Part shown: positions 9,633 through 53,145 of the stretch, piece after piece | Position numbering within the stretch: position 1 is the stretch's first letter | How the letters are laid out: every line of letters begins with the position of its first letter | Sequence record: MT360681 | Direction: 5' to 3' (one strand) | Origin: Shigella phage 2019SD1 | DNA length: 53,145 nucleotides | Translations under genes and position numbers: made by a program | Notes under the pieces: generated by a model | What the model was told of the DNA's origin: nothing | The model's input: only the letters and a program-made list of their open reading frames with translations | The model's database searches: none

Positions 9633-12286
9633 CGCTTGGGGTTGATGTATCTCAACTCAACAATGCTGTAAAGTCTTTGCAGCAATTCAAAAAGGCAAAC
9701 GACGACGCAAAGGGAAGCGTTGAGAACTTTGTTGATTCAGAGGTTGTTGCAAGGCAAAGAGCTAAACAATTGGCTGAGGAATTGGCGAAGCAGAAACAGG
9801 AATTTAAAGCAATTCAGTCTGCAATAGATCCAACAGCCAGCAAGATGGATAAGTTGCGTCAGGCTGCGACACAGCTTGATGCACTATGGAAAAAGGAATT
9901 GTGCCGGATGATACATTCTTTGAATCCGGATGATACATTCTTTGAATTAGGTTCAATTCTTGAGACACAGCAAAACAAGCTGATCGCAACGAAAAAGGCG
10001 CTAACAGAAGAAGGCCGAGCGGCGATTGAGGAAGCAAAGAATAAAGCGGGGCAGAGGCTGAGGCCAGAAAGTTCATTGCGGCATTACAGGCACAAGCAGA
10101 CGCAGCGGAAAAACAAAATCAGAGCTTGTAGAAATGAGAGCCGCACAACTTGGAGTAGAGCCGCACAACTTGGAGTTAGTGCTGAGGCAGCGCCATTTAT
10201 TGCAAAAATGAAGGAGCAGGAAAAACAAGCCTCAAAACTTGGCGTTTCTATGGGGCAGTACAAGCAAGCAATGGCGCAATTACCAATGCAGATCACTGAC
10301 GTTGTTACTTCTCTTGCTTCAGGAATGCCAGTATGGATGGTCGCAATCCAGCAGGGTGGACAGATCAAGGACTCATTCGGTGGTGTTGCGAATACGTTCA
10401 AAGCACTAATGACATTTGTCACGCCGTTAAGTGTAGGAATGACGGCGCTGACTGGTGCTCTTGGTTATGCTGCATATAATGCATACAAAACAAATGCACA
10501 ACTGAAGGAGATCACAAAACCGTTCAGGGGTAACTGGTCTTTCTGGTCAGAACAATACGCAGGCTTGACGCTTGGGGTTGATGTATCTCAACTCAACAAT
10601 GCTGTAAAGTCTTTGCAGCAATTCAAAAAGGCAAACGACGACGCAAAGGGAAGCGTTGAGAACTTTGTTGATTCAGAGGTTGTTGCAAGGCAAAGAGCTA
10701 AACAATTGGCTGAGGAATTGGCGAAGCAGAAACAGGAATTTAAAGCAATTCAGTCTGCAATAGATCCAACAGCCAGCAAGATGGATAAGTTGCGTCAGGC
10801 TGCGACACAGCTTGATGCACTATGGAAAAAGGAATTGTGCCGGATGATACATTCTTTGAATCTGCAATTTGCGAAGAACACCTATGAGGATATAGGAAAG
10901 ATCGTAAAAGATGCGAATAAGGATATGGCGGAACGAGCAGCACGCATCGACAGAGAAAACCTTTCCTTAAACAGAGTTCGAGCGGCGCAAGAGGCTTTAA
11001 ACAAAGCCATAGAGGATCAGAAGAACGTAGCAAGGACAGCAGACGAAGAGTTGAAAAACGAGCGGCTGAGAACGTTGAGTTCAGGCGAAAAGAGCTTGAA
11101 GAGGCGAAGAAGGCGCAGCAGCAAAGGAGAAAGTTGGCGGAGTTGTAAAAGCACCAACAGAGCAGCTGCAAAAGAAAAGGCCGAGATAGGCGATCAGATT
11201 GTTTTGCAACAGAGAAAGAACAAGCAATACCGGACGGGCTTAAATTCATTCAGCAAACTTCAGATGCCATTGATGCTAAACTTGCGACAGTCTGGAGCTA
11301 CAGATATGCAAATCAAGCGAGAGCTTGAGTTGAAGAAGTTGCGAACTGATTATGTTGCTGGCGGGGTAGTATCGACGATGAAATTTATCAGCAGATGGAA
11401 GCAAAGCGATATGTACGGCAACGTGCAAGATATTGCAAGCGAGGCGCTCAACGGTCTAACCAACCAAATGGCTACATTCCTTGCAACAGGCAAGGCGAAC
11501 TTTAAGAGCTTCGCAACGTCAATCATCCAAATGATTATCCAGATGATCACGAAGATGGTTATCTTTAATGCCATATCTGGTGCGATTGGCGGTGACACTT
11601 GGACGATTGGAAGCCTTCTTAAAATGTTGGATTTGCAACTGGTGGATACACTGGCGACGGCGGGAAGTATGAGCCAGCAGGTGTTGTCCATAAAGGCGAG
11701 TTTGTCAACGAAGGAGGCCACGAAGCGGATCGGAGTTGGAAATCTTTACAAAATGATGCGCGGTTATGCAAATGGCGGCGTTGTTGGTGGCACTTCATAC
11801 ACTGGCGGCGGAATTTCATCAGGAGCAACAAACCTTAATATTGGTGGGATTAGCGTTGATATTAACAACGGAAACGATCCAAAAGGGTTGGAGACTGGCG
11901 TAAAAATGATTTTCACTGATATGATTAAGCGTTCCTGTACGCAGGGTGGGGAAGTTTACGAATTTGTTATGTCTAAGCGGGGTGATAGTGAAACTACGAA
12001 GGAGGCCACGAAGCGGATCGGAGTTGGAAATCTTTACAAAATGATGCGCGGTTATGCAAATGGCGGCGTTGTTGGTGGCACTTCATACACTGGCGGCGGA
12101 ATTTCATCAGGAGCAACAAACCTTAATATTGGTGGGATTAGCGTTGATATTAACAACGGAAACGATCCAAAAGGGTTGGAGACTGGCGTAAAAATGATTT
12201 TCACTGATATGATTAAGCGTTCCTGTACGCAGGGTGGGGAAGTTTACGAATTTGTTATGTCTAAGCGGGGTGATAGTGAAACTTGA
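9608..12286 (+). CDS. Tail tape measure protein; contains displaced duplicate (9612-9925 = 10548-10862), tandem 288-bp C-terminal duplication (11708-11995, 11996-12283) and short tandem repeats near 9900 and 10140
   Basis: 892-aa ORF with hydrophobic segment ..[21 protein letters not shown].. typical of tape measure proteins; position after chaperone genes. Confidence 0.7.
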
Positions 12287-18880: not shown

Positions 18881-19291
18881 CTACCCTTGTTCCCGGGCAC
18901 TTCTTACGTTGCCACCACTCATGCATACGCCCTTGTATCGAATGTTATTATATCCACCCGTAACTCTACATATCGTACCTGTTCTCAGTATTGGGAAAAA
19001 TCCACCGCACCACTGCCAACCATCATTTATCGCCATAATCCCACCAAGAACAAAAGGACGTCTAACGCTTGAGAAAACTATCTGACCAGCAGGATTGCTC
19101 ATAGTGATTCCCGGCTCTGGGATGTAATCCATGTCGTCTATGTAGATAGCCTGAGATGGAAGGCAAAAGCGGTAGATCCCGGACAATGGGATAACCCAAA
19201 CGTAACTCTGGAATCTGACGGCAACACTATATGGTGCAGAGATGCAAACTATAACGGCATTGATGACGTTGGCGCGAGCGTATACGTGCAA
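18881..19291 (-). CDS. Hypothetical protein (frame uncertain)
   Basis: 136-aa minus-strand ORF in region between J and lipoprotein gene; overlapping ORFs in other frames. Confidence 0.2.
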   Translation of the reverse strand: MHVYARANVINAVIVCISAPYSVAVRFQSYVWVIPLSGIYRFCLPSQAIYIDDMDYIPEPGITMSNPAGQIVFSSVRRPFVLGGIMAINDGWQWCGGFFPILRTGTICRVTGGYNNIRYKGVCMSGGNVRSAREQG

Positions 19292-19563
19292 CTCGTAATA
19301 TTTAATAACACTCCACCACCTCCGTATTATTTAACCAGCTTCCAGAAGGTTAATGATTCAACTGGACGGATAACGGTAGGTAATTTTAACGGGCACGGTG
19401 GAAGGAGGATGAGATTTTATGGCAACTGTTACGAGATACTACCCGCTCAGGCTGGAAATCAGGGGATACTTGTTAACGATTCAACCAACTTTGCAGCGAT
19501 ACCGAATAACGCAAGGTTGATGAGCGCTGCATTTGTTGGAGGCATCCGTGTTAACGGTCAGGC

Positions 19564-19828
19564 TCAGTTGCCAGTCCGGTGTTCCTTTCGGAATGTGGGA
19601 TTACCACTCTTTGGTTTTGATTGATACCTTGCCGCTAAAGTTGCCCGGTCGTCATCGGATGAAAGACCTTTGAATCGCATATCGATTTCTCCAGCCGGAA
19701 CCTTCTTACCATCAACGAATAGCATCATACAAGATCCGTAAGTGTAAGTAACACAGTCGCCATTTTAAGATTCTGAGCACAACCAGTCATGGCAATGGCT
19801 GCAATCAAAACGGGGATTAACTTTTTCA
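19564..19828 (-). CDS. Small lipoprotein, candidate superinfection-exclusion protein (Cor/Llp-like); one internal frame change
   Basis: TAAGGAGA RBS, ATG at 19828 (minus), N-terminus MKKLIPVLIAAIAMTGC with lipobox; promoter motif copy 19886-19904 upstream; located next to tail tip gene. Confidence 0.45.
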
Positions 19829-22409: not shown

Positions 22410-22934
22410 ATGCATATCATTACTGGTGAGATCCGAAAAGAGCCGCGAGTAAAGCAAATGCCTAACGGCAGCACACTTTATGTGGTTGAACTTTCAGAGC
22501 GATACAAAGATAAAGATGGAAACTGGCAATATACAAACTACAGTTTCTTTTTAATGCGAAAACAGAAGGTCTTAAGGGTTGGTATGATGAGGCGTTCCGG
22601 TTGGCAAGGTTATTTCTGTATCTTGCATATCATTACTGGTGAGATCCGAAAAGAGCCGCGAGTAAAGCAAATGCCTAACGGCAGCACACTTTATGTGGTT
22701 GAACTTTCAGAGCGATACAAAGATAAAGATGGAAACTGGCAATATACAAACTACAGTTTCTTTTTAATGCGAAAACAGAAGGTCTTAAGGGTTGGTATGA
22801 TGAGGCGTTCCGGTTGGCAAGGTTATTTCTGTATCTTGTGACACTCTGCGCATTGAAACGCGAGAACACAACGGAAAGATGTATGACAAAGCAATCAACC
22901 TCCTATGGACTTTGACGACGATATTCCTTTCTGA
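22410..22934 (+). CDS. ssb: Single-stranded DNA-binding protein; exact tandem 213-bp duplication of N-terminal OB-fold segment and frame disruption before the C-terminal tail
   Basis: CAGGAGAATGAATA plus ATG; N-terminal ..TGEIRKEPRVKQMPNGSTLYVVELSERYKDKDGNWQYT.. OB-fold-like; a downstream frame ends ..MDFDDDIPF-stop, the hallmark SSB acidic tail. Confidence 0.55.
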
Positions 22935-23221: not shown

Positions 23222-23843
23222 GAGTTGATTGCTGTTCTGGCATTACAGGCCATGGGCTAATTGATTCCCTTTCTGCTACTGGCTTTTCAGGTTCAATTCC
23301 TAAAAACTTTCCTACAAACTCACCAACAAAATTTGAGCTATCGCTTACATAAACATGCATCCTGTCCAGATCTGCAACAGTAACGCTATTTGGTGCAATC
23401 ATGATCCTCTGCTGGTGAAAACCGATATACATCACATTGGCTGGACGTTCAAGAGTCCCCATATTTGGCGCAATTACGCCCATTATCCAACAATAATGAA
23501 TATTGCCATCAAGAGGCTCACATCCGGCGTTAAGCCAGTTTACTTTCTGGTGTGGGAATGCCATTGATGAATCAGTAGCGTCACGCCGTAACGACCATTT
23601 AACGCCGCCAATCTCAATAATTTGTTTAGGCCTCATTCCGTTGAATTGAGTCACGCCAGCGCCATTTTGATTAATGTTTTGCATTACTACTCGCGGCAAA
23701 TGCACGCTCGGTAACAGGTAACGCAACGCGAGATCTGATTCGCCAACAGTTTGCTGATTCTCAGGCTGTTTTGATTTGCGATATGAAAGCTCAGTTGCAG
23801 GAAGCGCGTTTTGCTCTTTCTCAGGCAAACCAGACCGCTGCAC
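23193..23843 (-). CDS. Hypothetical protein (216 aa)
   Basis: Minus-strand ORF; upstream end runs into perfect palindrome. Confidence 0.3.
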   Translation of the reverse strand: MQRSGLPEKEQNALPATELSYRKSKQPENQQTVGESDLALRYLLPSVHLPRVVMQNINQNGAGVTQFNGMRPKQIIEIGGVKWSLRRDATDSSMAFPHQKVNWLNAGCEPLDGNIHYCWIMGVIAPNMGTLERPANVMYIGFHQQRIMIAPNSVTVADLDRMHVYVSDSSNFVGEFVGKFLGIEPEKPVAERESISPWPVMPEQQSTHEGKENDEK

Positions 23844-24003
23844 TGAATTGCAAAATCAACCGTGTCGAGCAATTGGTAAACTTCAAGTTGCCTACTCCTC
23901 AGACTCCGCCTACTGGCTGTTGCGCAACAGCCAGTAGGCGGAGTCTGAGGAGTAGGCAACTTGAAGTTTACCAATTGCTCGACACGGTTGATTTTGCAAT
24001 TCA
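23844..24003. repeat. Perfect 160-bp palindrome (two 80-bp inverted arms, centre at 23923/23924)
   Basis: Right arm is exact reverse complement of left arm. Confidence 0.85.
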
Positions 24004-24399
24004 ATATAAAACATTTGTCAGCGATATGTAAGCAACTGGCATAAAGACGAAAAAGCGCAGCCTGAGCCGCGCTTGAGTTAAAAGATTGCATCCTCTCAGA
24101 TATGATTGGAGTTGATGAAAACGGCGAGGAGTACGTTGATCATCAAATTGAAACGGATCGCACAGATGACACTCTGGCGCTCGATAGCAACGTTATGCTA
24201 ACTGATATGGCTTGCGCTATGGTTTACATGGGAGGGATGATCGAAAACCAGAAAAAGGAGATAGACGAATTAAAGGCGGCTGTTGCTGCACTGCTCAATA
24301 AAACTTTACTCCCTACTGGTGGTGGTTTTGGTGGCGAAGCTGGCGCGGCTGGTCTTGGCGGCGCTGTTGGCGGCCTGATTGGGTCATGGTTTGGTAACG

Positions 24400-24870
24400 G
24401 CTTTAATGGTCGTGGTGGTTATGGTGGTGATGGTGCGGCTGTTGCTGTCGGTGCTAACGCTGTTCTTGATGGTATTAATAACATCCAGACAGGTGTAAAC
24501 AACCCGGTCTGCAAACTCTGCAAGGCCAAAACTCCACAAACCTTGCCGTTGAGCGCTCCGCCGCATCAACCTTTAACGGCATTACCAGCCAGAATACGCA
24601 AAACCTGCTTGCATCGGTGCAAGGCTTCGCCGGACCATAACAGGAGACCGGTACAAGTTTCACATATTGGGAATCGACATTCATCATATCTTGAGCAATC
24701 AGGCCGTAACGCTGAATGTCATCTCGCTTATACTTAAACATTGTCGGAAGCCATTGCATGACGCGATCATAACTTTCTTTTCCATCCGTATAAACGATGT
24801 CTTTTTCAGATCTCTGTCAGACGTTGGATTTTTGCAAAATCGTAGTTTCCTGTTCCAAACTGGCCATTAC
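24400..24870 (-). CDS. Fragment resembling the C-terminal intramolecular chaperone (peptidase S74-like) domain of tail fibres/spikes
   Basis: Minus-strand translation ..SEKDIVYTDGKESYDRVMQWLPTMFKYKRDDIQRYGLIAQDMMNVDSQYVKLVPV..; no clear start; downstream frame breaks. Confidence 0.35.
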
Positions 24871-25104
24871 CGACGGTGGGTTTTGACGAGCAATCTCTAT
24901 GCTAGACAGATCTGAAAGGTTCGCATCTTTTCTTAGTAGATTTTCAGCATTAAGGCTTTTAGCAAATTCCTCAGCCTCATTTCGCGCCGTAACAGCGCCG
25001 TTTTTGCAGTTTCAGCGGCGTTATTTGCAGATTGAGCGCCAGTCAGACAAACGGCGTGGTCTGGTACGTATTATACAGAGTATGTTCCTTTTACGCTGAA
25101 ATCT

Positions 25105-25156
25105 GACGCTTGTCCGGTTCTGTAAATTGCGCAATTTACAGAACCGGACAAGCGTC
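25105..25156. repeat. Perfect 52-bp palindrome
   Basis: GACGCTTGTCCGGTTCTGTAAATTGC / GCAATTTACAGAACCGGACAAGCGTC. Confidence 0.8.
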
Positions 25157-25337
25157 AAAACAACGACGCAGGATGGTCGCCAATCGTTTGTGGAGGTAGT
25201 CAGTCGCAATGGGGTTATGCTCTAAAATCAGCTTTCGGAACTATTGCTAATAACCAAGCTTGGCCTGATACAGCTATACACCACTCATTCGCCCCGGTGC
25301 AACAATCTTTTTCATTGATGCACCGTTTCAAGCGGCT

Positions 25338-27494
25338 GTGATTGGTGATAACGCTCATAACAGGATGTTTTATTTTCTCATACCGGGACGTCGGGTTGGT
25401 CCTTTTGATAGTGTTGGTGCTAATACGATTATTTACTCGCCAGACGGATCTTATAGGTTGGTTATCAGAGATGACGGATTACTAGTTTATCAGAAAGGTG
25501 ACGGAACTGAAACCAAGCCATTTGAAATTGCGACTGGTGGGACTGGGGCAACTGATGCAGCAGGTGCTCGCAATAATCTTGGGCTTGGCAGCTATACACC
25601 ACTCATTCGCCCCGGTGCAACAATCTTTTTCATTGATGCACCGTTTCAAGCGGCTGTGATTGGTGATAACGCTCATAACAGGATGTTTTATTTTCTCATA
25701 CCGGGACGTCGGGTTGGTCCTTTTGATAGTGTTGGTGCTAATACGATTATTTACTCGCCAGACGGATCTTATAGGTTGGTTATCAGAGATGACGGATTAC
25801 TAGTTTATCAGAAAGGTGACGGAACTGAAACCAAGCCATTTGAAATTGCGACTGGTGGGACTGGGGCAACTGATGCAGCAGGTGCTCGCAATAATCTTGG
25901 GCTTGGGACTGGGCAAGACGTTCAATTTAAGAGCATTACGGCTACAGACGGCGATATTCTAGTTCCGCAAACTCACGTTGTAGGATGTAAAACTAATACT
26001 GGCGGTAACAAAAATATCTATCTGACGAACTTACCGGAGAATCAACTTCAGGTGGGTGGGACTGGCGCTCAATCTGCAAATAACGCCGCTGAAACTGCAA
26101 AAACGGCGCTGTTACGGCGCGAAATGAGGCTGAGGAATTTGCTAAAAGCCTTAATGCTGAAAATCTACCATGTATTGCTGGGCGACGCTCAAGGTTATAT
26201 CACTGGATACGATACGAAATGGCGAGAGCAATTAACACTCATTCGCCCCGGTGCAACAATCTTTTTCATTGATGCACCGTTTCAAGCGGCTGTGATCAGT
26301 GAAGTTATCAGCGATACACAAATCCGCGCTATCACAACTGGCGGCGCTGAAATTGGGCGGAGCAACTACATTATTTTGCTGCATGACTCAATCACTGTTG
26401 ATGGCCCGGCGCAAGATGTTGCGGAAACTCTGCGTTACTATCAAAGCAAAGAAACTCAGATCGAGGAAGCTATTGAATTTTTCAAAAACTTTGATCTAAA
26501 ACAGTTGCAAGATCTGGCTAATCAGGTTAAAGGTGATGCAGAGAAAACAGCCAATGATCGTGCTGCTACTGAACAACTGAAAAACGACACTCAACATATA
26601 AAGGATTCTGCTGTTGCTGAAACAAACCAGATTAAAGCAGACACTAACGCAATCAAGGCGCAAACACAACAGATTAAAGATTCTGCGATAACGGAAGTTA
26701 ATTCCGCACGCGATCAAGGTGTTTTAGCTGTAAACCAGACTAAAGATCAGGCTGTTTCAGAAATGAATCAGATAAAGGGTGATGTTTCGAATCTGAAAAC
26801 GAAGCTATTTCAGCAAGGGATTCAGCCCAGCAATACATGGCAATGGACGCTCAAGGTTATATCACTGGATACGATACGAAATGGCGAGAGCAATATCAGT
26901 GAAGTTATCAGCGATACACAAATCCGCGCTATCACAACTGGCGGCGCTGAAATTGGGCGGAGCAACTACATTATTTTGCTGCATGACTCAATCACTGTTG
27001 ATGGCCCGGCGCAAGATGTTGCGGAAACTCTGCGTTACTATCAAAGCAAAGAAACTCAGATCGAGGAAGCTATTGAATTTTTCAAAAACTTTGATCTAAA
27101 ACAGTTGCAAGATCTGGCTAATCAGGTTAAAGGTGATGCAGAGAAAACAGCCAATGATCGTGCTGCTACTGAACAACTGAAAAACGACACTCAACATATA
27201 AAGGATTCTGCTGTTGCTGAAACAAACCAGATTAAAGCAGACACTAACGCAATCAAGGCGCAAACACAACAGATTAAAGATTCTGCGATAACGGAAGTTA
27301 ATTCCGCACGCGATCAAGGTGTTTTAGCTGTAAACCAGACTAAAGATCAGGCTGTTTCAGAAATGAATCAGATAAAGGGTGATGTTTCGAATCTGAAAAC
27401 GAAGCTATTTCAGCAAGGGATTCAGCCCAGCAATACACATGCGTTTTCTCCCGTGTTGCATGTTAATGTCAATGCAGATAATAGCATTTGCTAA
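25338..27494 (+). CDS. Long tail fibre protein; 318-bp tandem duplication (25271-25588, 25589-25906), 600-bp tandem duplication (26297-26838 and 26897-27438) and frame disruption near 26100
   Basis: N-terminal ..GGTGATDAAGARNNLGLG.. motif common to phage tail fibres; long coiled-coil-like repeats rich in A/T/N/Q/K. Confidence 0.6.
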   Translation: MIGDNAHNRMFYFLIPGRRVGPFDSVGANTIIYSPDGSYRLVIRDDGLLVYQKGDGTETKPFEIATGGTGATDAAGARNNLGLGSYTPLIRPGATIFFIDAPFQAAVIGDNAHNRMFYFLIPGRRVGPFDSVGANTIIYSPDGSYRLVIRDDGLLVYQKGDGTETKPFEIATGGTGATDAAGARNNLGLGTGQDVQFKSITATDGDILVPQTHVVGCKTNTGGNKNIYLTNLPENQLQVGGTGAQSANNAAETAKTALLRREMRLRNLLKALMLKIYHVLLGDAQGYITGYDTKWREQLTLIRPGATIFFIDAPFQAAVISEVISDTQIRAITTGGAEIGRSNYIILLHDSITVDGPAQDVAETLRYYQSKETQIEEAIEFFKNFDLKQLQDLANQVKGDAEKTANDRAATEQLKNDTQHIKDSAVAETNQIKADTNAIKAQTQQIKDSAITEVNSARDQGVLAVNQTKDQAVSEMNQIKGDVSNLKTKLFQQGIQPSNTWQWTLKVISLDTIRNGESNISEVISDTQIRAITTGGAEIGRSNYIILLHDSITVDGPAQDVAETLRYYQSKETQIEEAIEFFKNFDLKQLQDLANQVKGDAEKTANDRAATEQLKNDTQHIKDSAVAETNQIKADTNAIKAQTQQIKDSAITEVNSARDQGVLAVNQTKDQAVSEMNQIKGDVSNLKTKLFQQGIQPSNTHAFSPVLHVNVNADNSIC

Positions 27495-27516: not shown

Positions 27517-27535
27517 GCGAAAGTAGCAGTGACAT

Positions 27536-28470
27536 GATCCAACCAACTCCGGTATCATTACCGCACACGTTGCAGATCGCACCGCCATCGCCTTTTTATC
27601 GCCAAGTTTATCCGTCCATCTGAAGCGATCCTTTCCGCCGCAGTGGGGCTTTTCATTGATGAAGAAGGTAAACAGTCTTTTCTAGCAAAGGACTACACGC
27701 GCGGGTCGGTTGTGAGAACAGGAAACACCGATAAGACTATCTATCTTTGCGTTGACTGGATTGATGCGCAACATATTCACCTTGCAACTGGTCAAGAGGT
27801 TTGGGCCTGCTTCGATGCAACTAATATTGAGATTGTAGCTTACAGGTATAAAGGCAACAGAAGAATGCGAGTTGTCTGTAAGAGTACAGACCGTGACGCT
27901 ATCATAGCTGCCGAGGAAAGAGGTCTTGAAATTATGATGCCGATTAATGATAATTACAGGCAAGGGATAGACAGGAAGGTTTACAAACCTGAATCTCTTC
28001 TCAAGCTAACCGGAGAACCTTACAGCGAAGTGATCAATATTTTGGGCCGTTTTCTTGGGAAAGTTCCACAGGACTATAGAATCAAGGCAAATAAGCGAGT
28101 ATCTCGTGATTCTGGTTATTCGTTTGGGAAACAGGCAAGTCATGAATGCTGCGAGCGCGTTATGTCAAAAACATTAAAATTTGATCGCACGCCGTTAAGC
28201 ACATATGAAGGAATATACCCGCCTGAAGATGGTTATTATGAATGCGGCGTAAAAGATGGTCGATACATTCACGCGTTACCATGTTACCGGTGCATTCAGA
28301 TGAAATTGATGATGAAATGTGCAATGTGCTTTTCATTGATGAAGAAGGTAAACAGTCTTTTCCCCCACTGCGGCGGAAAGGATCGCTTCAGATGGACGGA
28401 TAAACTTGGCGATAAAAAGGCGATGGCGGTGCGATCTGCAACGTGTGCGGTAATGATACCGGAGTTGGTT
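27536..28470. repeat. Segment bounded by ~115-bp perfect inverted repeats (27536-27650 and 28354-28470) plus 34-bp direct repeats (27648-27682, 28320-28353)
   Basis: Exact reverse-complement identity of the two outer arms. Confidence 0.8.
27643..28319 (+). CDS. Hypothetical protein encoded inside the inverted-repeat-flanked segment
   Basis: Open frame across the internal segment; GTG start; no recognisable motifs. Confidence 0.25.
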
Positions 28471-28622
28471 GGATCACAAGATTGATGCTTGCCGTTAAAA
28501 ACTTCATTTGGAAGACCGCAAATACTTTGTAGCGCCTCACGCCACAATCCTTGCATATATGGGAGTACATCTTCCTTTTGATAAACCATAAAGTTTTCGT
28601 TATTCATATACACCTCAAACAA
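28354..28622 (-). CDS. Hypothetical protein, N-terminal part only (frame ends inside inverted repeat)
   Basis: Minus-strand start at 28622; protein-like N-terminus MFEVYMNNENFMVYQKEDVLPYMQGLWREALQ.. Confidence 0.25.
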
Positions 28623-35327: not shown

Positions 35328-35935
35328 TGAGTATAAAACAAAGAAACGTACACACAGAGAGAGTGCGATGCGCTACTGGCAAAGCATATCAAGATCGCAA
35401 AGGATGAAGTTGATAAACGTGTAAAGGTTGATATCCCTGATACAATGACCGCTGCGGCTTTTGGCGTTGCTCTTGCTCTTACTTCTCCATTACTGGAGGA
35501 AATAGAAGGAGTAAAACATAAACCGTACAAAGATATTGCTGGAATATGGACGGTTTGCGCCGGAATAACTGGACCTGACGTAATGCCGACCGCTGCGGCT
35601 TTTGGCGTTGCTCTTGCTCTTACTTCTCCATTACTGGAGGAAATAGAAGGAGTAAAACATAAACCGTACAAAGATATTGCTGGAATATGGACGGTTTGCG
35701 CCGGACGCGCAGCGATGTATTCATTCACATACAATGCTGGCACTGGTGCTTTTAGAAATTCAACCATGCTTAAGCTGATTAATAACGGTCGTTATATGGA
35801 AGCGTGCAATCAGTTATGGCGATGGACAAAATACACCAATCCAAAACAGGAAAGAAAGAAACGTCTAAAGGACTGCGCAACCGCCGCGCGGTGGAATTTA
35901 AATATTGCATTAAGGATCTGTAATCATGAGAAAGT
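35327..35935 (+). CDS. Endolysin, GH24 lysozyme-like; tandem ~141-bp duplication (35447-35587, 35588-35710) and frame disruption near N-terminus
   Basis: ..LEEIEGVKHKPYKDIAGIWTVCAG.. matches the E-G..Y.D..G..T.G.G lysozyme catalytic region; C-terminal ..FTYNAGTGAFRNSTMLKLINNGRYMEACNQLWRW.. Confidence 0.55.
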
Positions 35936-36324: not shown

Positions 36325-36978
36325 ATGGTTGCATGCCATTTTTTCTTTCTTCCTCCAGCACACCCCTATTCCATTGTCATATATAAATATTTTATTCCAA
36401 TCGATTGGAATAAAATATTTATATATGACAATGGAATATTGTGGGAAATGCACAATGGAAAAATACCAGAAGGAATGGAGATAGATCATATATGGCACAA
36501 TAGGTGGGATAACAGGATTGAAAATTTAAGGCTTGCATCAAGATTAGAGAACAGCAAAAACGTATCTCTACTAAAAAGAAATAAATCTGGTAGGGTTGGG
36601 GTGTGCTGGAGGAAGAAAGAAAGGTGGAGAAACAGAAGGGGAAAAGCAAAGCACGGAAGCGTTGCTGGATGTGTAGATAAAAATGGCTATGTAAGAATAA
36701 GGTATAATGGTGTATTGCTTTTGGCACATAGGATAATATGGGAAATGCACAATGGAAAAATACCAGAAGGAATGGAGATAGATCATATATGGCACAATAG
36801 GTGGGATAACAGGATTGAAAATTTAAGGCTTGCATCAAGATTAGAGAACAGCAAAAACGTATCTCTACTAAAAAGAAATAAATCTGGTAGGGTTGGGGTG
36901 TGCTGGAGGAAGAAAGAAAAAATGGCATGCAACCATATACATATCTTTTCCTTAGAGCTTTTATTTGTTGTCTATTAA
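36325..36978 (+). CDS. HNH homing endonuclease with AP2-like DNA-binding domain; internal ~180-297-bp duplication (36442-36620 approx = 36739-36917)
   Basis: ..NGYVRIRYNGVLLLAHRIIWEMHNGKIPEGMEIDHIWHNRWDNRIENLRLASRLENSKN.. classic HNH motif; ..KSGRVGVCWRKK.. AP2-like. Confidence 0.65.
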   Translation: MVACHFFFLPPAHPYSIVIYKYFIPIDWNKIFIYDNGILWEMHNGKIPEGMEIDHIWHNRWDNRIENLRLASRLENSKNVSLLKRNKSGRVGVCWRKKERWRNRRGKAKHGSVAGCVDKNGYVRIRYNGVLLLAHRIIWEMHNGKIPEGMEIDHIWHNRWDNRIENLRLASRLENSKNVSLLKRNKSGRVGVCWRKKEKMACNHIHIFSLELLFVVY

Positions 36979-39128: not shown

Positions 39129-39239
39129 TTACCCGAATTGTTCCAACTCGATCACATCATCGCTACCAGAAATTTTTTCGTATACGGTTTTATAGCGCCC
39201 GCTCATCAAAACGTTGGTTTTATTGCAGATAACTTTCAT
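39129..39239 (-). CDS. Small hypothetical protein (36 aa) or N-terminal remnant of a disrupted gene
   Basis: GGAGAAATAAACG plus ATG (minus strand) 50 bp downstream of promoter motif copy at 39293-39314. Confidence 0.25.
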   Translation of the reverse strand: MKVICNKTNVLMSGRYKTVYEKISGSDDVIELEQFG

Positions 39240-41219: not shown

Positions 41220-41412
41220 TACACAACCTCCATAATAGTATTGAATCCACGCAGTTTGAAAGCATTGCCATGTTTAACAACGTTCCATGTCAGGCCGGAG
41301 TGATACGCAACCATATCATCAAGATCAATGGTGATGATAGCTCCTTTCTTAAAGATTCCTTTCTCGTGAGTGGTGTCACGATGTACAACTTTAACATCAA
41401 CTTGATTTTCCA
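41219..41412 (-). CDS. Hypothetical protein (64 aa)
   Basis: AGGATTTAAAG plus ATG (minus) downstream of promoter motif 41468-41489 and stem-loop with TATATT. Confidence 0.4.
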
Positions 41413-41551
41413 TCTTTAAATCCTCGTTCGTTGTCGATGCGCTTAATATACCAATCAGAGGCGCATCGGTTTTAACAAAAGTGCTATTAGTCCAGAATTC
41501 GATTTCGCGCTCGCCAGTTAACGGATCTTTAATCCAGAATCCGAGCGGCAT
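41413..41551 (-). CDS. Small hypothetical ORF reading through the promoter motif (stop not resolved)
   Basis: Strong GAAGGAGAAATAAAG RBS plus ATG at 41551 (minus). Confidence 0.2.
41468..41489 (-). promoter_or_regulatory. Conserved promoter-like motif copy
   Basis: Minus-strand reading TAATAGCACTTTTGTTAAAACC then 7-bp stem GATGCGC..GCGCATC enclosing TATATT. Confidence 0.55.
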
Positions 41552-41564
41552 CTTTATTTCTCCT

Positions 41565-41808
41565 TCATTGCTGATCGCGTTTAACTGCCCACAGAACATC
41601 GCAGGACTCGTTAATGAATTTTGCCATGCGTTTATCATCACCAGCAGGAATTAGCGCGTTAAACTCGCGTTTGCTACTGAACACAGTCACTTTATGGAAT
41701 GATGCGAACGGCATCGACGGGAACTCTACTGTTTGCGTCAAGATCCGCAATCCCATCTTTTGGCCCCACCGGCCTCTGCAACTTCAAAATCCACTTCATT
41801 AATCATTT
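41565..41808 (-). CDS. Hypothetical protein (frame disruption near start)
   Basis: Minus-strand ORF 41565-41756 with in-context ATG at about 41808 in a neighbouring frame. Confidence 0.25.
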
Positions 41809-51589: not shown

Positions 51590-52982
51590 AATGAGCGAAT
51601 ATTCATTCGAAAAGATGATCCGCATTTGGTTTCAACTTCTCGGGGCAAAGGTTCTTAGGAAACTGGCATTTCAGTTACCTATGCAGCGAAGTGCAGGAGC
51701 TATGGCCGGAAAGCTGGCAAAGGCGAGCGCAAAGGACTTGATTGTAACCGATGTCGGCAAGGTTAAATTGCAAGTTAACTCGCGTTCTATCGGTGGTCAG
51801 GTTACTGGTCTGCGTGGCGGCTACATGGATGATGGATTTACTGGTATGCTGGTTCTTGATGATCCAGACAAGCCGGATGACATGCTTTCTAAGGTGAAGC
51901 GCGAAGCCGGACACATGCGCCTAAAGAACACGGTGCGATCACGTCGAATGAAGGACACAACGCCAATCGTAATGGTCCAGCAACGGCTACACGTCAATGA
52001 TTCAACATGGTTCATGACAAACGGCGGCATGGGCGGCATCCAGTTTAAGGTGGTCAGTATTCCGGCGCTCGTTACTAAGGAATATCGCGAAACGCTTCCT
52101 GATTGGTTAAAGCCTGAGTTTGATCGCGATGTTTTATCCAGTAAGCCAGTAATGATTGATGGTGTTGCTCATTATTCATTCTGGCCTGCTAAGAAAGCGC
52201 GGAGGAATTACTTGCACTTCGAAATGCTGATCCGTACACGTTCGCCAGTCAGTATCAGCAACAGCCTGTTGCGCTTGGCGGTAACGTGTTTAAAACGGAG
52301 TGGTTTCAGTATTACGGCAGCAGCGAGAAATGCACGCTACCAAAACCGGATCGCTTTGAGTATACATTTATCACGGTTGATACCGCGCAGAAAACGGGTG
52401 AGCTTAACGACTACTCCGTATAAAGATCGCGTTTACTTCATTGATGGTGTTCGCGGAAAATGGGAAGCACCAGACCTTGAAACTAATTTTGTTGCGTTCG
52501 TTAATCAGTGCTGGAAGCGTAATAAAGAATGCGGAACGTTGCGAAGGATTCATGTTGAAGATAAGTCATCTGGCACTGGCTTGATTCAGAGCGCAGCGAA
52601 AAAATTATATAAAGATCGCGTTTACTTCATTGATGGTGTTCGCGGAAAATGGGAAGCACCAGACGAAACTAATTTTGTTGCGTTCGTTAATCAGTGCTGG
52701 AAGCGTAATAAAGAATGCGGAACGTTGCGAAGGATTCATGTTGAAGATAAGTCATCTGGCACTGGCTTGATTCAGAGCGCAGCGAAAAATTATGATCAAG
52801 ATCAATCCCGTTCAGCGAGACTGGCTGAGATACTCGCTGAAGTTGCGGCGTTCACATTCGATGATTCGCATCCTCATGATGATATTGTTGATAACATCAT
52901 TGATGCTGTTAACATTGAAATGAACATGGCAGATGATCCGGTAGGAAGAATGAAAAAATTGGCAGGTTTGCGGAACAAATAA
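51590..52982 (+). CDS. Terminase large subunit (N-terminal region uncertain; internal frame change near 52195; 180-bp tandem duplication 52425-52610 approx)
   Basis: ..ADPYTFASQYQQQPVALGGNVFKTEWFQYYG.. and C-terminal ..FTFDDSHPHDDIVDNIIDAVN.. typical of terminase nuclease domain; Walker A-like ..SRGKGS.. only visible in a shifted frame near 51600. Confidence 0.55.
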
Positions 52983-52985
52983 TCA

Positions 52986-53012
52986 AAGGCTGGTAAATCC
53001 AGCCTTTTTATT
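52986..53012 (+). terminator. Rho-independent terminator after large terminase
   Basis: AGGCTGG-TAAAT-CCAGCCT followed by TTTTATT. Confidence 0.6.
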
Positions 53013-53034
53013 GAGGAAAGATATACCAGAGGAA

Positions 53035-53145
53035 ATGGTTTCCCGGCTTTACTGTTGACGGCGTGGCAGATGAGGCGGCATTCCGTTCCTTGTGGGATGA
53101 GAAGCGACTCAATGCAAAATTATTGATGCGCTTTGTTGGTCGCGT
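53035..53145 (+). CDS. Portal protein N-terminal segment (continues at position 179 after wrap)
   Basis: ATG at 53035 after AGGAAAG-like RBS and terminase terminator; downstream sequence identical to 179-255 apart from one A-run length difference; the frame needs a 1-bp correction. Confidence 0.35.

What the first reader, a model, noticed from the sequence alone, without database searches (positions are those of the whole stretch)
24400..25338. Tail fibre C-terminal chaperone-like domain lies on the opposite strand upstream of the fibre gene, together with an inverted fibre fragment
The minus strand at 24400-24870 encodes ..RYGLIAQDMMNVDSQYVKL.., resembling the self-cleaving intramolecular chaperone (S74-like) domain that normally forms the C-terminus of a fibre or spike. 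Here it is detached and inverted relative to the plus-strand fibre gene (25338-27494). In addition, 24928-25038 is the exact reverse complement of 26046-26160 inside the fibre gene. This could reflect a real separate divergently transcribed fibre or spike gene, but the exact inverted copy argues for rearrangement artefact.
Basis: partly seen in the sequence, partly recalled or inferred. Interest (0 to 1): 0.45.

Follow-up and report, generated by a model that had tools for sequence, protein, structure and literature searches.

The report
Scrambled phage tail-fibre locus artefact
The "inverted" tail-fibre chaperone domain is genuine fibre sequence, but its odd placement is one of roughly a hundred cut, flip and duplicate scars in a nanopore-only genome record (Shigella phage 2019SD1) that NCBI already labels an unverified assembly, so it tells us nothing about phage biology.

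Summary
The minus strand at about 24640-24890 encodes a Peptidase_S74 intramolecular-chaperone core: 25.9 bits as it stands, 35 bits once two 1-nt deletions are corrected. A 109-nt exact inverted repeat exists at 24936-25044 / 26060-26168.

In every relative the lateral tail fibre lies on the minus strand in window orientation. The S74 piece is therefore a remnant still in native orientation. The 718-aa plus-strand "fibre gene" is a patchwork of flipped and duplicated N-terminal blocks with no S74.

The window is the whole of Shigella phage 2019SD1 (MT360681): ONT R9.4, Albacore and Canu, no polishing, now labelled UNVERIFIED_ASMBLY. It has 0 CCWGG sites against 115 in phage vojen, and long homopolymers are truncated.

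About 120 colinearity breaks are superimposed across the genome. In 26 of 27 exact direct repeats of at least 100 nt the spacing is a multiple of 3. Eleven of 18 tandem duplications end just before an in-frame stop, and 9 of the 10 stops tested exist only because of nanopore frameshifts. The scrambling was therefore done on the error-containing digital sequence.

Verdict: not a real feature. Interest is low, apart from database hygiene.

The parts
23716..23923 (+). C-terminal part (aa 164-232) of the Gly/Cys-rich hypothetical protein that natively follows the fibre gene (homolog of SFP17_019 / vojen gp58). It is flipped to the plus strand and ends at the last codons before the native stop.
   Evidence: blastx 98.6% aa; blastn against vojen 35189->34981, inverted
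23924..24003 (-). Exact reverse-complement partner of 23844-23923. Together they form a 160-nt perfect palindrome with no spacer. This arm is in native orientation.
   Evidence: the repeat finder I3; exact-repeat scan
24004..24088 (-). Native-orientation intergenic DNA that lies immediately 3' of the fibre stop codon in relatives. It includes the fibre's intrinsic-terminator-like hairpin on the minus strand (24074-24053).
   Evidence: blastn against vojen 35767-35854; terminator scan; alignment to SFP17 9679-9760
24089..24104 (+). About 13 nt with no match to the reference loci held (SFP17, JakobBernoulli, ESh4, vojen), plus the ATG that starts deposited ORF SD1_29. TCAGATATG matches codons 2-4 of the Gly-rich protein, so the assignment to that gene's start is tentative.
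   Evidence: Table S1 of PMC8590004
24098..24302 (+). Last 68-71 aa of the fibre, the C-terminal helical part of the intramolecular chaperone domain (...IGVDENGEEY...KAAVAALLNK). It is flipped to the plus strand, ends exactly at the last sense codon, and is fused in frame to the next block.
   Evidence: blastx to SFP17 aa 636-706, 88.7%; blastn to ESh4 88%; junction sequence
24303..24635 (+). Gly-rich protein aa 5-115, flipped. The block starts at the codon after Met4 (ATG). It contains a net 1-nt loss at a garbled CCTGG site near 24505. It ends exactly before the TGA that this frameshift would create in the native continuation.
   Evidence: blastx 100% aa in two frames; sequence comparison with vojen gp58
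24102..24737 (+). Deposited ORF SD1_29 (211 aa, 'hypothetical protein'). It is a chimera of the fibre C-terminal fragment, the Gly-rich protein fragment, and read-through of the antisense of the S74 block.
24640..24890 (-). The S74 core (PF13884) of the fibre, in native orientation, including the ...YDFAKNPT-SDRDLK-KDIV... cleavage motif. It is broken into three frames by two A6->A5 deletions and carries a CCAGG->CCGG deletion near its 3' end. It is not annotated in the deposit.
   Evidence: Pfam; blastn to ESh4 93% with 2 homopolymer gaps; three-frame translation
24880..25045 (-). Fibre aa about 230-285 in native orientation. 24936-25044 is the exact reverse complement of 26060-26168.
25104..25157 (.). 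54-nt perfect palindrome (27+27, no spacer) built from the fibre's first codons (aa 2-10).
   Evidence: the repeat finder I4
25159..25283 (+). Distal fibre fragment (about aa 456-501 in vojen numbering, 46-48% aa identity), flipped to the plus strand.
   Evidence: blastx
25271..25906 (+). Exact 318-nt tandem duplication (25271-25588 / 25589-25906) inside the composite ORF.
25338..27494 (+). Deposited ORF SD1_30 (718 aa, 'tail fiber protein' in RefSeq). It is a composite of at least 8 flipped fibre blocks in non-native order: aa 30-51, 287-353, 30-51, 287-394, 244-266, 12-244, 10-27, 49-240. It has no S74.
26060..26168 (+). Plus-strand arm of the 109-nt exact inverted repeat (fibre aa about 230-266).
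26295..27437 (+). 543-nt exact direct repeat (26295-26837 / 26895-27437, spacing 600) of the fibre N-terminal coiled-coil region.
27533..28476 (+). Primase (SD1_31) rebuilt from three ORF fragments, each flipped in place, so it reads C-terminal, middle, N-terminal. It has a 35-nt overlap duplication and a 114-nt exact inverted repeat (27535-27648 / 28363-28476). It shows the same process acting on a non-fibre gene next door.

Best explanation
What it is. The minus-strand sequence is the real C-terminal intramolecular-chaperone (Peptidase_S74) domain of this Hanrivervirus's lateral tail fibre. In an intact phage it sits colinear at the 3' end of a roughly 2-kb minus-strand fibre gene. From published work on the family, it helps the fibre trimer fold and is cut off at the Ser of the SDRDLK motif.

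Why it looks detached. The window is the deposited genome of Shigella phage 2019SD1 (MT360681 = IMGVR_UViG_2974632794_000001), and that record is not a faithful copy of the phage DNA. Two layers of artefact are present.

Layer 1 is an unpolished nanopore consensus. Every Dcm site (CCWGG) is garbled, homopolymers of 6 or more are shortened, and genes are broken into ORF fragments.

Layer 2 is an ORF-aware cut-and-paste applied afterwards to that error-laden digital sequence. ORF bodies or parts of them were duplicated in tandem, flipped in place, swapped or fused. This usually happened between a start codon and a stop codon, so long ORFs stay open.

Effect at the fibre locus. Three pieces stayed in native orientation: aa 2-10, about 230-285, and the S74 core. 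The last 70 aa were flipped and fused to the downstream Gly-rich protein, giving ORF SD1_29. Most of the N-terminal half was flipped and duplicated into the 718-aa ORF SD1_30.

Shown versus inferred. Shown: the S74 identity, the native orientation in relatives, the nanopore error signature, and the anchoring of block ends to error-created ORF ends. Inferred: that the second layer was software or manual editing after assembly. Who did it, and with what tool, is unknown.
For: Identity. The junction 24302|24303 occurs in exactly one IMG/VR contig, of length 53145. ORFs 25338-27494, 24102-24737 and 27643-28485 are exact matches to QJT70559/58/60 of Shigella phage 2019SD1, named 'UNVERIFIED_ASMBLY'. 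Table S1 of PMC8590004 lists the same coordinates.

Method. GridION R9.4, Albacore 2.3.1, Canu 1.8, no short-read polishing. A 73,606-bp scaffold was reduced to 53.15 kb without description.

Error layer. There are 0 CCWGG sites in 53 kb, against 115 in vojen. A/T runs of 6 or more number 6 against 66. Of 148 small indels, 140 are deletions in the window; 28 lie at CCWGG and 70 in homopolymers of 4 or more. Non-triplet gaps run at 4.9 per kb, against 0.5-1.0 per kb between natural relatives.

Scrambling layer. There are about 120 colinearity breaks against vojen. In 26 of 27 exact direct repeats of at least 100 nt, and in 18 of 18 tandem duplications with period of at least 60, the spacing is divisible by 3. 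Seven of 8 duplications with unambiguous ends start at codon phase 0. Eleven of 18 end right before an in-frame stop (null 1.2%), 11 of 18 start right after ATG/GTG/TTG (null 5.8%), and 7 are whole ORF bodies. Nine of 10 of those stops are not the native gene stop and are out of frame in vojen.

Uniqueness. Twenty related loci (16 from IMG/VR, 4 from GenBank) have no exact repeat of 60 nt or more and about 2 CCWGG per kb.

Fibre locus. The joined halves are colinear in 292 of 296 phage records. The fibre is on the strand opposite to exoVIII and the helicase in 4 annotated relatives. A native-orientation terminator lies at 24074-24053.
Against: No reads were available, so no junction was tested at read level. 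The paper does not describe any editing step, so the 'ORF-aware editing' is inferred from pattern only.

Not every junction is codon-aligned or ORF-anchored. Examples are the 318-nt duplication at 25271, the 80-nt palindrome arms, and the 685-nt-spaced repeat at 39223/39908. Some breaks could therefore stem from the Canu contig itself. My attempt to derive the fibre-locus layout from a short series of simple operations failed.

The reference-based frame test was confounded by indels and is not used.
Confidence: 0.88

Rival explanations
1. Ordinary mis-assembly. Chimeric nanopore reads from ligation-based native barcoding (mean read length 1.9 kb), or Canu consensus errors, produced the inversions and duplications. 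No later editing was involved.
For: Library preparation was ligation-based with short reads. Canu gave a 73.6-kb scaffold for a roughly 51-kb phage. Fold-back palindromes with no spacer (23844-24003, 25104-25157, 36367-36438) resemble chimeric-read artefacts. A few junctions are not codon-aligned.
Against: Neither ligation nor an assembler knows reading frames. Yet 18 of 18 tandem periods are multiples of 3, 11 of 18 units abut an in-frame stop, and 7 are exact ORF bodies. The ORF ends used are ones created by basecalling frameshifts. Microhomology at junctions is 0-6 nt, so there is no k-mer or overlap signature.
Confidence: 0.07
2. Real biology. The fibre locus carries a programmed invertible segment of the Mu G / P1 C / shufflon type, or a diversity-generating system, that flips or copies fibre C-terminal cassettes. 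The S74 piece would then be an alternative exon.
For: A 109-nt exact inverted repeat flanks about 1 kb of fibre sequence. Fibre pieces lie on both strands. Invertible fibre cassettes are well known in other phages (own knowledge).
Against: No invertase or reverse transcriptase was found. The window is covered by vojen-homologous blocks, and vojen's annotation names no invertase or reverse transcriptase. The ORFs I scanned in the larger non-vojen stretches gave DUF6453, HNH_3, Gp54 or no Pfam hit.

The pieces on the two strands are unique, complementary parts of one gene, not alternative paralogous C-termini. Identical scars occur in portal, terminase, tape measure, primase, helicase, SSB and other genes. 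Repeats are 100% identical, so there is no TR/VR pattern. Sixteen related IMG/VR loci show none of it.
Confidence: 0.02
3. A genuinely separate, divergently transcribed fibre or spike gene that ends in its own S74 domain.
For: An ORF of 94 aa (24475-24759, minus strand) contains the S74 core.
Against: The S74 domain lacks its own C-terminal 70 aa, which lie flipped at 24098-24302. The upstream minus-strand sequence jumps from fibre aa about 548 back to aa 285 and then to aa 10. The frame is broken twice by homopolymer deletions. No relative has a second such gene here.
Confidence: 0.01

Closest known systems
Lateral tail fibre of Hanrivervirus / T1-like Drexlerviridae (SFP17_018, vojen gp59, ESh4 URY10767, JakobBernoulli bas07_0036 'lateral tail fiber protein')
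   Same: The N-terminal 240 aa are 96-97% identical. The S74 core and C-terminal helix are 79-89% identical. The neighbours are the same: primase and regulator upstream, Gly-rich protein downstream, and a terminator after the stop.
   Different: In relatives it is one colinear 615-742 aa gene on the strand opposite to exoVIII and the helicase. Here it is cut into 12 or more blocks on both strands with exact duplications, and no intact ORF exists.
C-terminal intramolecular chaperone domains of phage fibres and spikes: Pfam PF13884 / MEROPS S74; K1F endosialidase CIMCD; T5-like L-shaped tail fibre
   Same: A profile match above the gathering score. An SDRDLK motif with Ser and Lys five residues apart, which corresponds to the Ser/Lys dyad of S74 as I recall it from MEROPS. 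A weak sequence match to the C-terminus of a solved L-shaped tail fibre, 8hqz_d residues 956-1052, E 0.0017.
   Different: In this record the domain is split, partly inverted and frameshifted, so it could not act as encoded. No structure prediction was made.
Invertible tail-fibre segments (Mu G segment/Gin, P1 C segment/Cin, shufflons)
   Same: Inverted repeats within a fibre locus, and fibre coding sequence on both strands.
   Different: There is no recombinase and no alternative C-terminal cassettes. The repeats are 109 nt of ordinary coding sequence rather than short crossover sites. The same scars occur genome-wide.
Unpolished ONT R9.4 assemblies of Dcm+ E. coli / Shigella-grown DNA
   Same: Systematic loss or garbling of CCWGG, homopolymer under-calling, and an excess of 1-2-nt deletions. 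The method is confirmed in PMC8590004.
   Different: Such assemblies are normally colinear with relatives. The codon-phased, ORF-anchored duplications and flips seen here are not a known property of basecallers or of Canu.

Membership tests
Peptidase_S74 / intramolecular chaperone domain (PF13884) | Profile HMM match above Pfam's gathering score | tested here: met
   25.9 bits as encoded and 35.0 bits after frame correction, against a cut-off of 22
Peptidase_S74 / intramolecular chaperone domain (PF13884) | Self-cleavage motif with Ser and a Lys five residues downstream (S-D-x-R-x-K; the dyad is from my own knowledge of MEROPS S74) | tested here: met
   NPT-SDRDLK-KDIV is visible on the minus strand. 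It is separated from the flanking residues by two 1-nt homopolymer deletions.
Peptidase_S74 / intramolecular chaperone domain (PF13884) | Located at the C-terminus of a trimeric fibre or spike protein, colinear with the shaft | tested here: not met
   Met in 292 of 296 phage records for the joined halves. In this record the domain is split at about aa 634/636, its end is flipped, and it is not joined to a shaft. The failure is attributed to the record, not to the phage.
Peptidase_S74 / intramolecular chaperone domain (PF13884) | Autoproteolytic release and chaperone activity | not testable with these tools
   Needs protein expression.
Site-specific invertible fibre segment (Gin/Cin/Hin type, shufflon) | Adjacent serine or tyrosine recombinase gene | tested here: not met
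   vojen's annotation, which covers the homologous blocks of the window, names no invertase. The ORFs scanned in the larger non-vojen stretches gave DUF6453, HNH_3, Gp54 or no Pfam hit.
Site-specific invertible fibre segment (Gin/Cin/Hin type, shufflon) | Alternative, paralogous C-terminal cassettes in opposite orientation, sharing a constant N-terminal part | tested here: not met
   The pieces on the two strands are non-overlapping parts of a single fibre. The only shared part is a 109-nt exact copy.
Site-specific invertible fibre segment (Gin/Cin/Hin type, shufflon) | Rearrangement confined to the fibre locus | tested here: not met
   About 120 colinearity breaks across the whole 53 kb.
Diversity-generating retroelement | Reverse transcriptase plus a template/variable repeat pair differing at adenines | tested here: not met
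   No reverse transcriptase is named in vojen's annotation or hit in the non-vojen ORFs scanned. All repeats are 100% identical.
Unpolished nanopore (R9.4) consensus | Systematic errors at Dcm (CCWGG) sites and under-called homopolymers | tested here: met
   0 against 115 CCWGG sites. A/T runs of 6 or more number 6 against 66. Of 148 small indels, 140 are deletions. The method is stated in PMC8590004.

The most novel reading that the evidence does not exclude
The scars are physical. The sequenced lysate would have been dominated by massively rearranged, non-viable (defective or hitch-hiking) T1-like genomes whose breakpoints track reading frames, implying an unknown frame-sensing rearrangement process. 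This would require the nanopore-type frameshifts to be real mutations as well, because the block ends follow them.
Probability: 0.01. Interest if true: 0.7.

Novelty: not a real feature. Interest (0 to 1): 0.06.

Why it matters
It matters for data hygiene, not for biology. The scrambled record sits in IMG/VR as a complete UViG. Its chimeric proteins carry RefSeq and UniRef accessions: YP_009901420.1 / A0A6M5CCJ3 'tail fiber protein', YP_009901421.1 'DNA primase', and YP_009901416.1 'SSB', which is a doubled truncated body.

Scans for inverted fibre cassettes, shufflons, repeat proteins, gene fusions or novel domain orders will return false positives from it. The published inferences about 'multiple putative tail fiber proteins' and gene orientation (64 rightward, 13 leftward) rest on this sequence.

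NCBI's UNVERIFIED_ASMBLY label already warns users, but the derived databases do not carry that label.

Tried and rejected
1. A reference-based codon-phase test of every junction gave 32 in phase against 50 out of phase. It is invalid because about 5 indels per kb against vojen shift the mapped phase. I replaced it with tests on the window's own exact repeats.

2. I looked for an unscrambled parent of this fibre allele. A 47-mer and a 36-mer from the S74 block occur only in this contig in IMG/VR and nowhere in the metagenome contigs. MT360681 is not in the phage collection.

3. I searched papers for the IMG taxon id and found nothing. The identity came from an exact protein look-up instead.

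4. I considered a language-model-generated or simulated sequence before the provenance was known. I dropped this once the record was traced to a wet-lab ONT project.

5. I tried to derive the 24004-24640 layout from one or two simple inversions. No short series of operations reproduces it.

6. I considered a motif-driven breakpoint preference as a frame-blind explanation for codon phasing. The junction contexts share no motif other than start and stop codons.
Full report
1. THE OBSERVATION

ORF listing and repeat finding show a 94-aa minus-strand ORF (24475-24759) containing RYGLIAQDMMNVDSQYVKL. They also show a 109-nt perfect inverted repeat at 24936-25044 / 26060-26168.

The minus-strand peptide hits Pfam Peptidase_S74 above the gathering score: 25.9 bits against a cut-off of 22, profile positions 5-57 of 58. 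The 718-aa plus-strand ORF (25338-27494) has no significant Pfam hit. The native fibre of phage SFP17 has S74 at residues 575-629 of 706. So the described sequence features are real.

2. WHAT THE NATIVE LOCUS LOOKS LIKE

The window is 94-97% identical, in pieces, to Hanriverviruses (Drexlerviridae), including SFP17, vojen, ESh4 and JakobBernoulli. In all four annotated relatives the order is exoVIII-Erf-SSB on one strand. Four small genes, the lateral tail fibre, primase and regulator follow on the other strand. The helicase is then back on the first strand.

In the window, exoVIII/Erf/SSB and the helicase are on the plus strand. The native fibre orientation is therefore minus. The minus-strand S74 piece, the minus-strand fibre fragment at 24880-25045, the fragment at 25104-25130 and the minus-strand terminator at 24074-24053 all lie in ascending reference order in native orientation. 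The plus-strand 'fibre gene' is the part that has been turned round.

3. ANATOMY OF 23.7-27.5 kb

- 23716-23923: C-terminus of the Gly/Cys-rich protein that natively follows the fibre, flipped to plus.
- 23924-24003: its exact palindromic partner.
- 24004-24088: native-orientation intergenic DNA with the fibre terminator.
- 24098-24302: the fibre's last about 70 aa, flipped to plus and ending exactly at the last sense codon (K).
- 24303-24635: fused in frame to the previous block. It is the Gly-rich protein from the codon after Met4 to aa 115. It has a net 1-nt loss at a garbled CCTGG site. It ends exactly before the TGA that this frameshift would expose.
- 24640-24890 (minus): ...GNYDFAK|NPTSDRDLKK|DIVYTDGKESYDRVMQWLPTMFKYKRDDIQRYGLIAQDMMNVDSQYVKLVP.., the S74 core. 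Two A6->A5 deletions split it over three frames. It also carries a CCAGG->CCGG deletion.
- 24880-25045 (minus): fibre aa about 230-285.
- 25104-25157: a 54-nt palindrome of the fibre's first codons.
- 25159-27437 (plus): flipped fibre blocks in the order aa 456-501, 30-51, 287-353, 30-51, 287-394, 244-266, 12-244, 10-27, 49-240. This stretch includes a 318-nt exact tandem duplication and a 543-nt exact repeat.

When the two S74 halves are joined and the two homopolymer deletions corrected, the domain scores 35 bits over profile 1-57/58. It matches a single colinear piece at the 3' end of fibre genes in 292 of 296 phage records, best 89% to ESh4. It weakly matches the C-terminus of a solved L-shaped tail fibre, 8hqz_d.

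4. THE SCRAMBLING IS GENOME-WIDE

Tiling the window on vojen gives about 120 breaks of colinearity. These are tandem duplications, swaps of adjacent blocks, in-place inversions and deletions. They affect portal, head protease, capsid, tape measure, J-like tail protein, exoVIII, SSB, primase, regulator, both helicases, terminase and others.

There are 27 exact direct repeats of at least 100 nt and 7 exact inverted repeats or palindromes of at least 45 nt. Sixteen related IMG/VR loci and four GenBank loci have no exact repeat of 60 nt or more.

5. FIRST ARTEFACT LAYER: NANOPORE CONSENSUS ERRORS

- The window has 0 CCWGG sites; vojen has 115.
- A/T runs of 6 or more: 6 in the window, 66 in vojen.
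- 140 of 148 small indels are deletions in the window. Of these, 28 are at CCWGG and 70 are in homopolymers of 4 or more.
- Non-triplet gaps run at 4.9 per kb, against 0.5-1.0 per kb among natural relatives.
- A conserved 21-nt motif with A5 in relatives appears with A4 at the window sites where it was found.

6. SECOND LAYER: THE REARRANGEMENTS FOLLOW ORFS

- In 26 of 27 long exact direct repeats, and in 18 of 18 tandem duplications with period of at least 60, the spacing is divisible by 3. By my arithmetic the chance of 18 of 18 is about 3e-9.
- 7 of 8 duplications with unambiguous ends begin at codon phase 0.
- 11 of 18 end immediately before an in-frame stop (null 1.2%), and 11 of 18 begin immediately after ATG/GTG/TTG (null 5.8%).
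- 7 duplicate exactly an ORF body between its start and stop codons.
- 9 of 10 such stops are not the native stop of the homologous vojen gene. They are out-of-frame triplets that become stops only after an upstream nanopore-type frameshift.

The neighbouring primase shows the same logic. Three ORF fragments are each flipped in place, so the ORF reads C-terminal, middle, N-terminal. One block ends at the last sense codon. Another ends just before a frameshift-created TAG. A 35-nt overlap between fragments is duplicated.

Block boundaries that depend on basecalling errors cannot be properties of the DNA molecule, and no assembler is frame-aware. I therefore infer that the scrambling was applied to the digital sequence after assembly.

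7. PROVENANCE

The junction 24302|24303 is found in one IMG/VR contig, IMGVR_UViG_2974632794_000001, which is 53145 nt long, the same length as the window. Exact protein look-up identifies the ORFs as SD1_29, 30, 31, 32 and others of Shigella phage 2019SD1. They carry RefSeq and UniRef accessions and the GenBank prefix 'UNVERIFIED_ASMBLY'.

The paper (PMC8590004) reports GridION R9.4, Albacore 2.3.1 and Canu 1.8, with no short-read polishing and a mean read length of 1.9 kb. A 73,606-bp scaffold 'revealed' a 53.15-kb genome. Accession is MT360681 and reads are SRS7234126. Its Table S1 lists ORF29 at 24102-24737, ORF30 at 25338-27494 and ORF31 at 27643-28485, identical to window coordinates. 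The S74 fragment is not annotated there. No step explaining the rearrangements is described.

8. RIVALS

A frame-blind mis-assembly fits the palindromes and the odd scaffold size, but not the codon and ORF anchoring. A programmed invertible fibre segment or a DGR fails for four reasons:
- no recombinase or reverse transcriptase;
- no alternative cassettes;
- 100% identical repeats;
- the same scars occur in unrelated genes.

A separate divergent spike gene fails because the domain is itself cut, frameshifted and lacks a shaft.

9. VERDICT

The feature is not a biological arrangement. It is a symptom of a corrupted public record that NCBI has already flagged. Interest is low. The practical value is a warning that its chimeric 'tail fiber', 'primase', 'SSB' and other proteins persist in RefSeq-derived, UniRef and IMG/VR resources.

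Noticed in passing
whole window (1-53145): There are no CCWGG (Dcm) sites at all, against 115 in phage vojen, and almost no homopolymers of 6 or more. This is a clean signature of unpolished R9.4 nanopore consensus.
   Followed up: yes
31923(+), 32969(-), 39294(+), 39979(+), 41470(+), 42138(+), 43224(-), 48523(-): A conserved roughly 20-nt motif, TTTTAACAAAAGTGCTATTT, is scattered on both strands. Relatives carry it as TTTTAACAAAAAGTGCTATTT (6 copies in vojen). It is probably a regulatory repeat of Hanriverviruses. Its function was not examined.
   Followed up: partly
36325-36978 (+): An HNH_3 homing-endonuclease ORF (E 1e-39) lies in a 745-nt stretch absent from vojen. It has itself been doubled (297-nt period) and is flanked by a 72-nt perfect palindrome (36367-36438) and 45-nt inverted repeats.
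   Followed up: partly
18884-19621: A DUF6453 gene is split. Profile positions 69-154 are on the plus strand (19073-19621) and positions 207-283 are on the minus strand (18884-19330). This is another flipped fragment outside the fibre locus.
   Followed up: partly
22410-22841 (+): The deposited 'single-stranded DNA binding protein' SD1_26 (143 aa) is M plus two identical copies of a 71-aa body. That body ends at a premature stop 232 nt before the native SSB stop.
   Followed up: yes
27533-28485: The deposited primase (280 aa) reads C-terminal part, middle, N-terminal part. There is a 114-nt exact inverted repeat at 27535-27648 / 28363-28476.
   Followed up: yes
1-256 and 52279-53145: The contig ends overlap imperfectly. 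175-229 equals 53065-53119 and 227-256 equals 53116-53145, offset by 1 nt. 1-21 equals 52279-52299. The record starts inside the portal gene, so it was cut from a permuted or concatemeric scaffold.
   Followed up: no
41222-41650 (-): An ORF with a Pfam Gp54 'phage antiviral trigger protein' domain (E 9e-36) lies in a stretch with no DNA match to vojen.
   Followed up: no
24303-24635 and relatives (SFP17_019, vojen gp58): The gene downstream of the fibre encodes a 234-aa protein with a Gly-rich N-terminus and Cys clusters (CCCE...GCCG), and it has no Pfam hit. It is conserved next to the fibre in all relatives. Its role is unknown.
   Followed up: no
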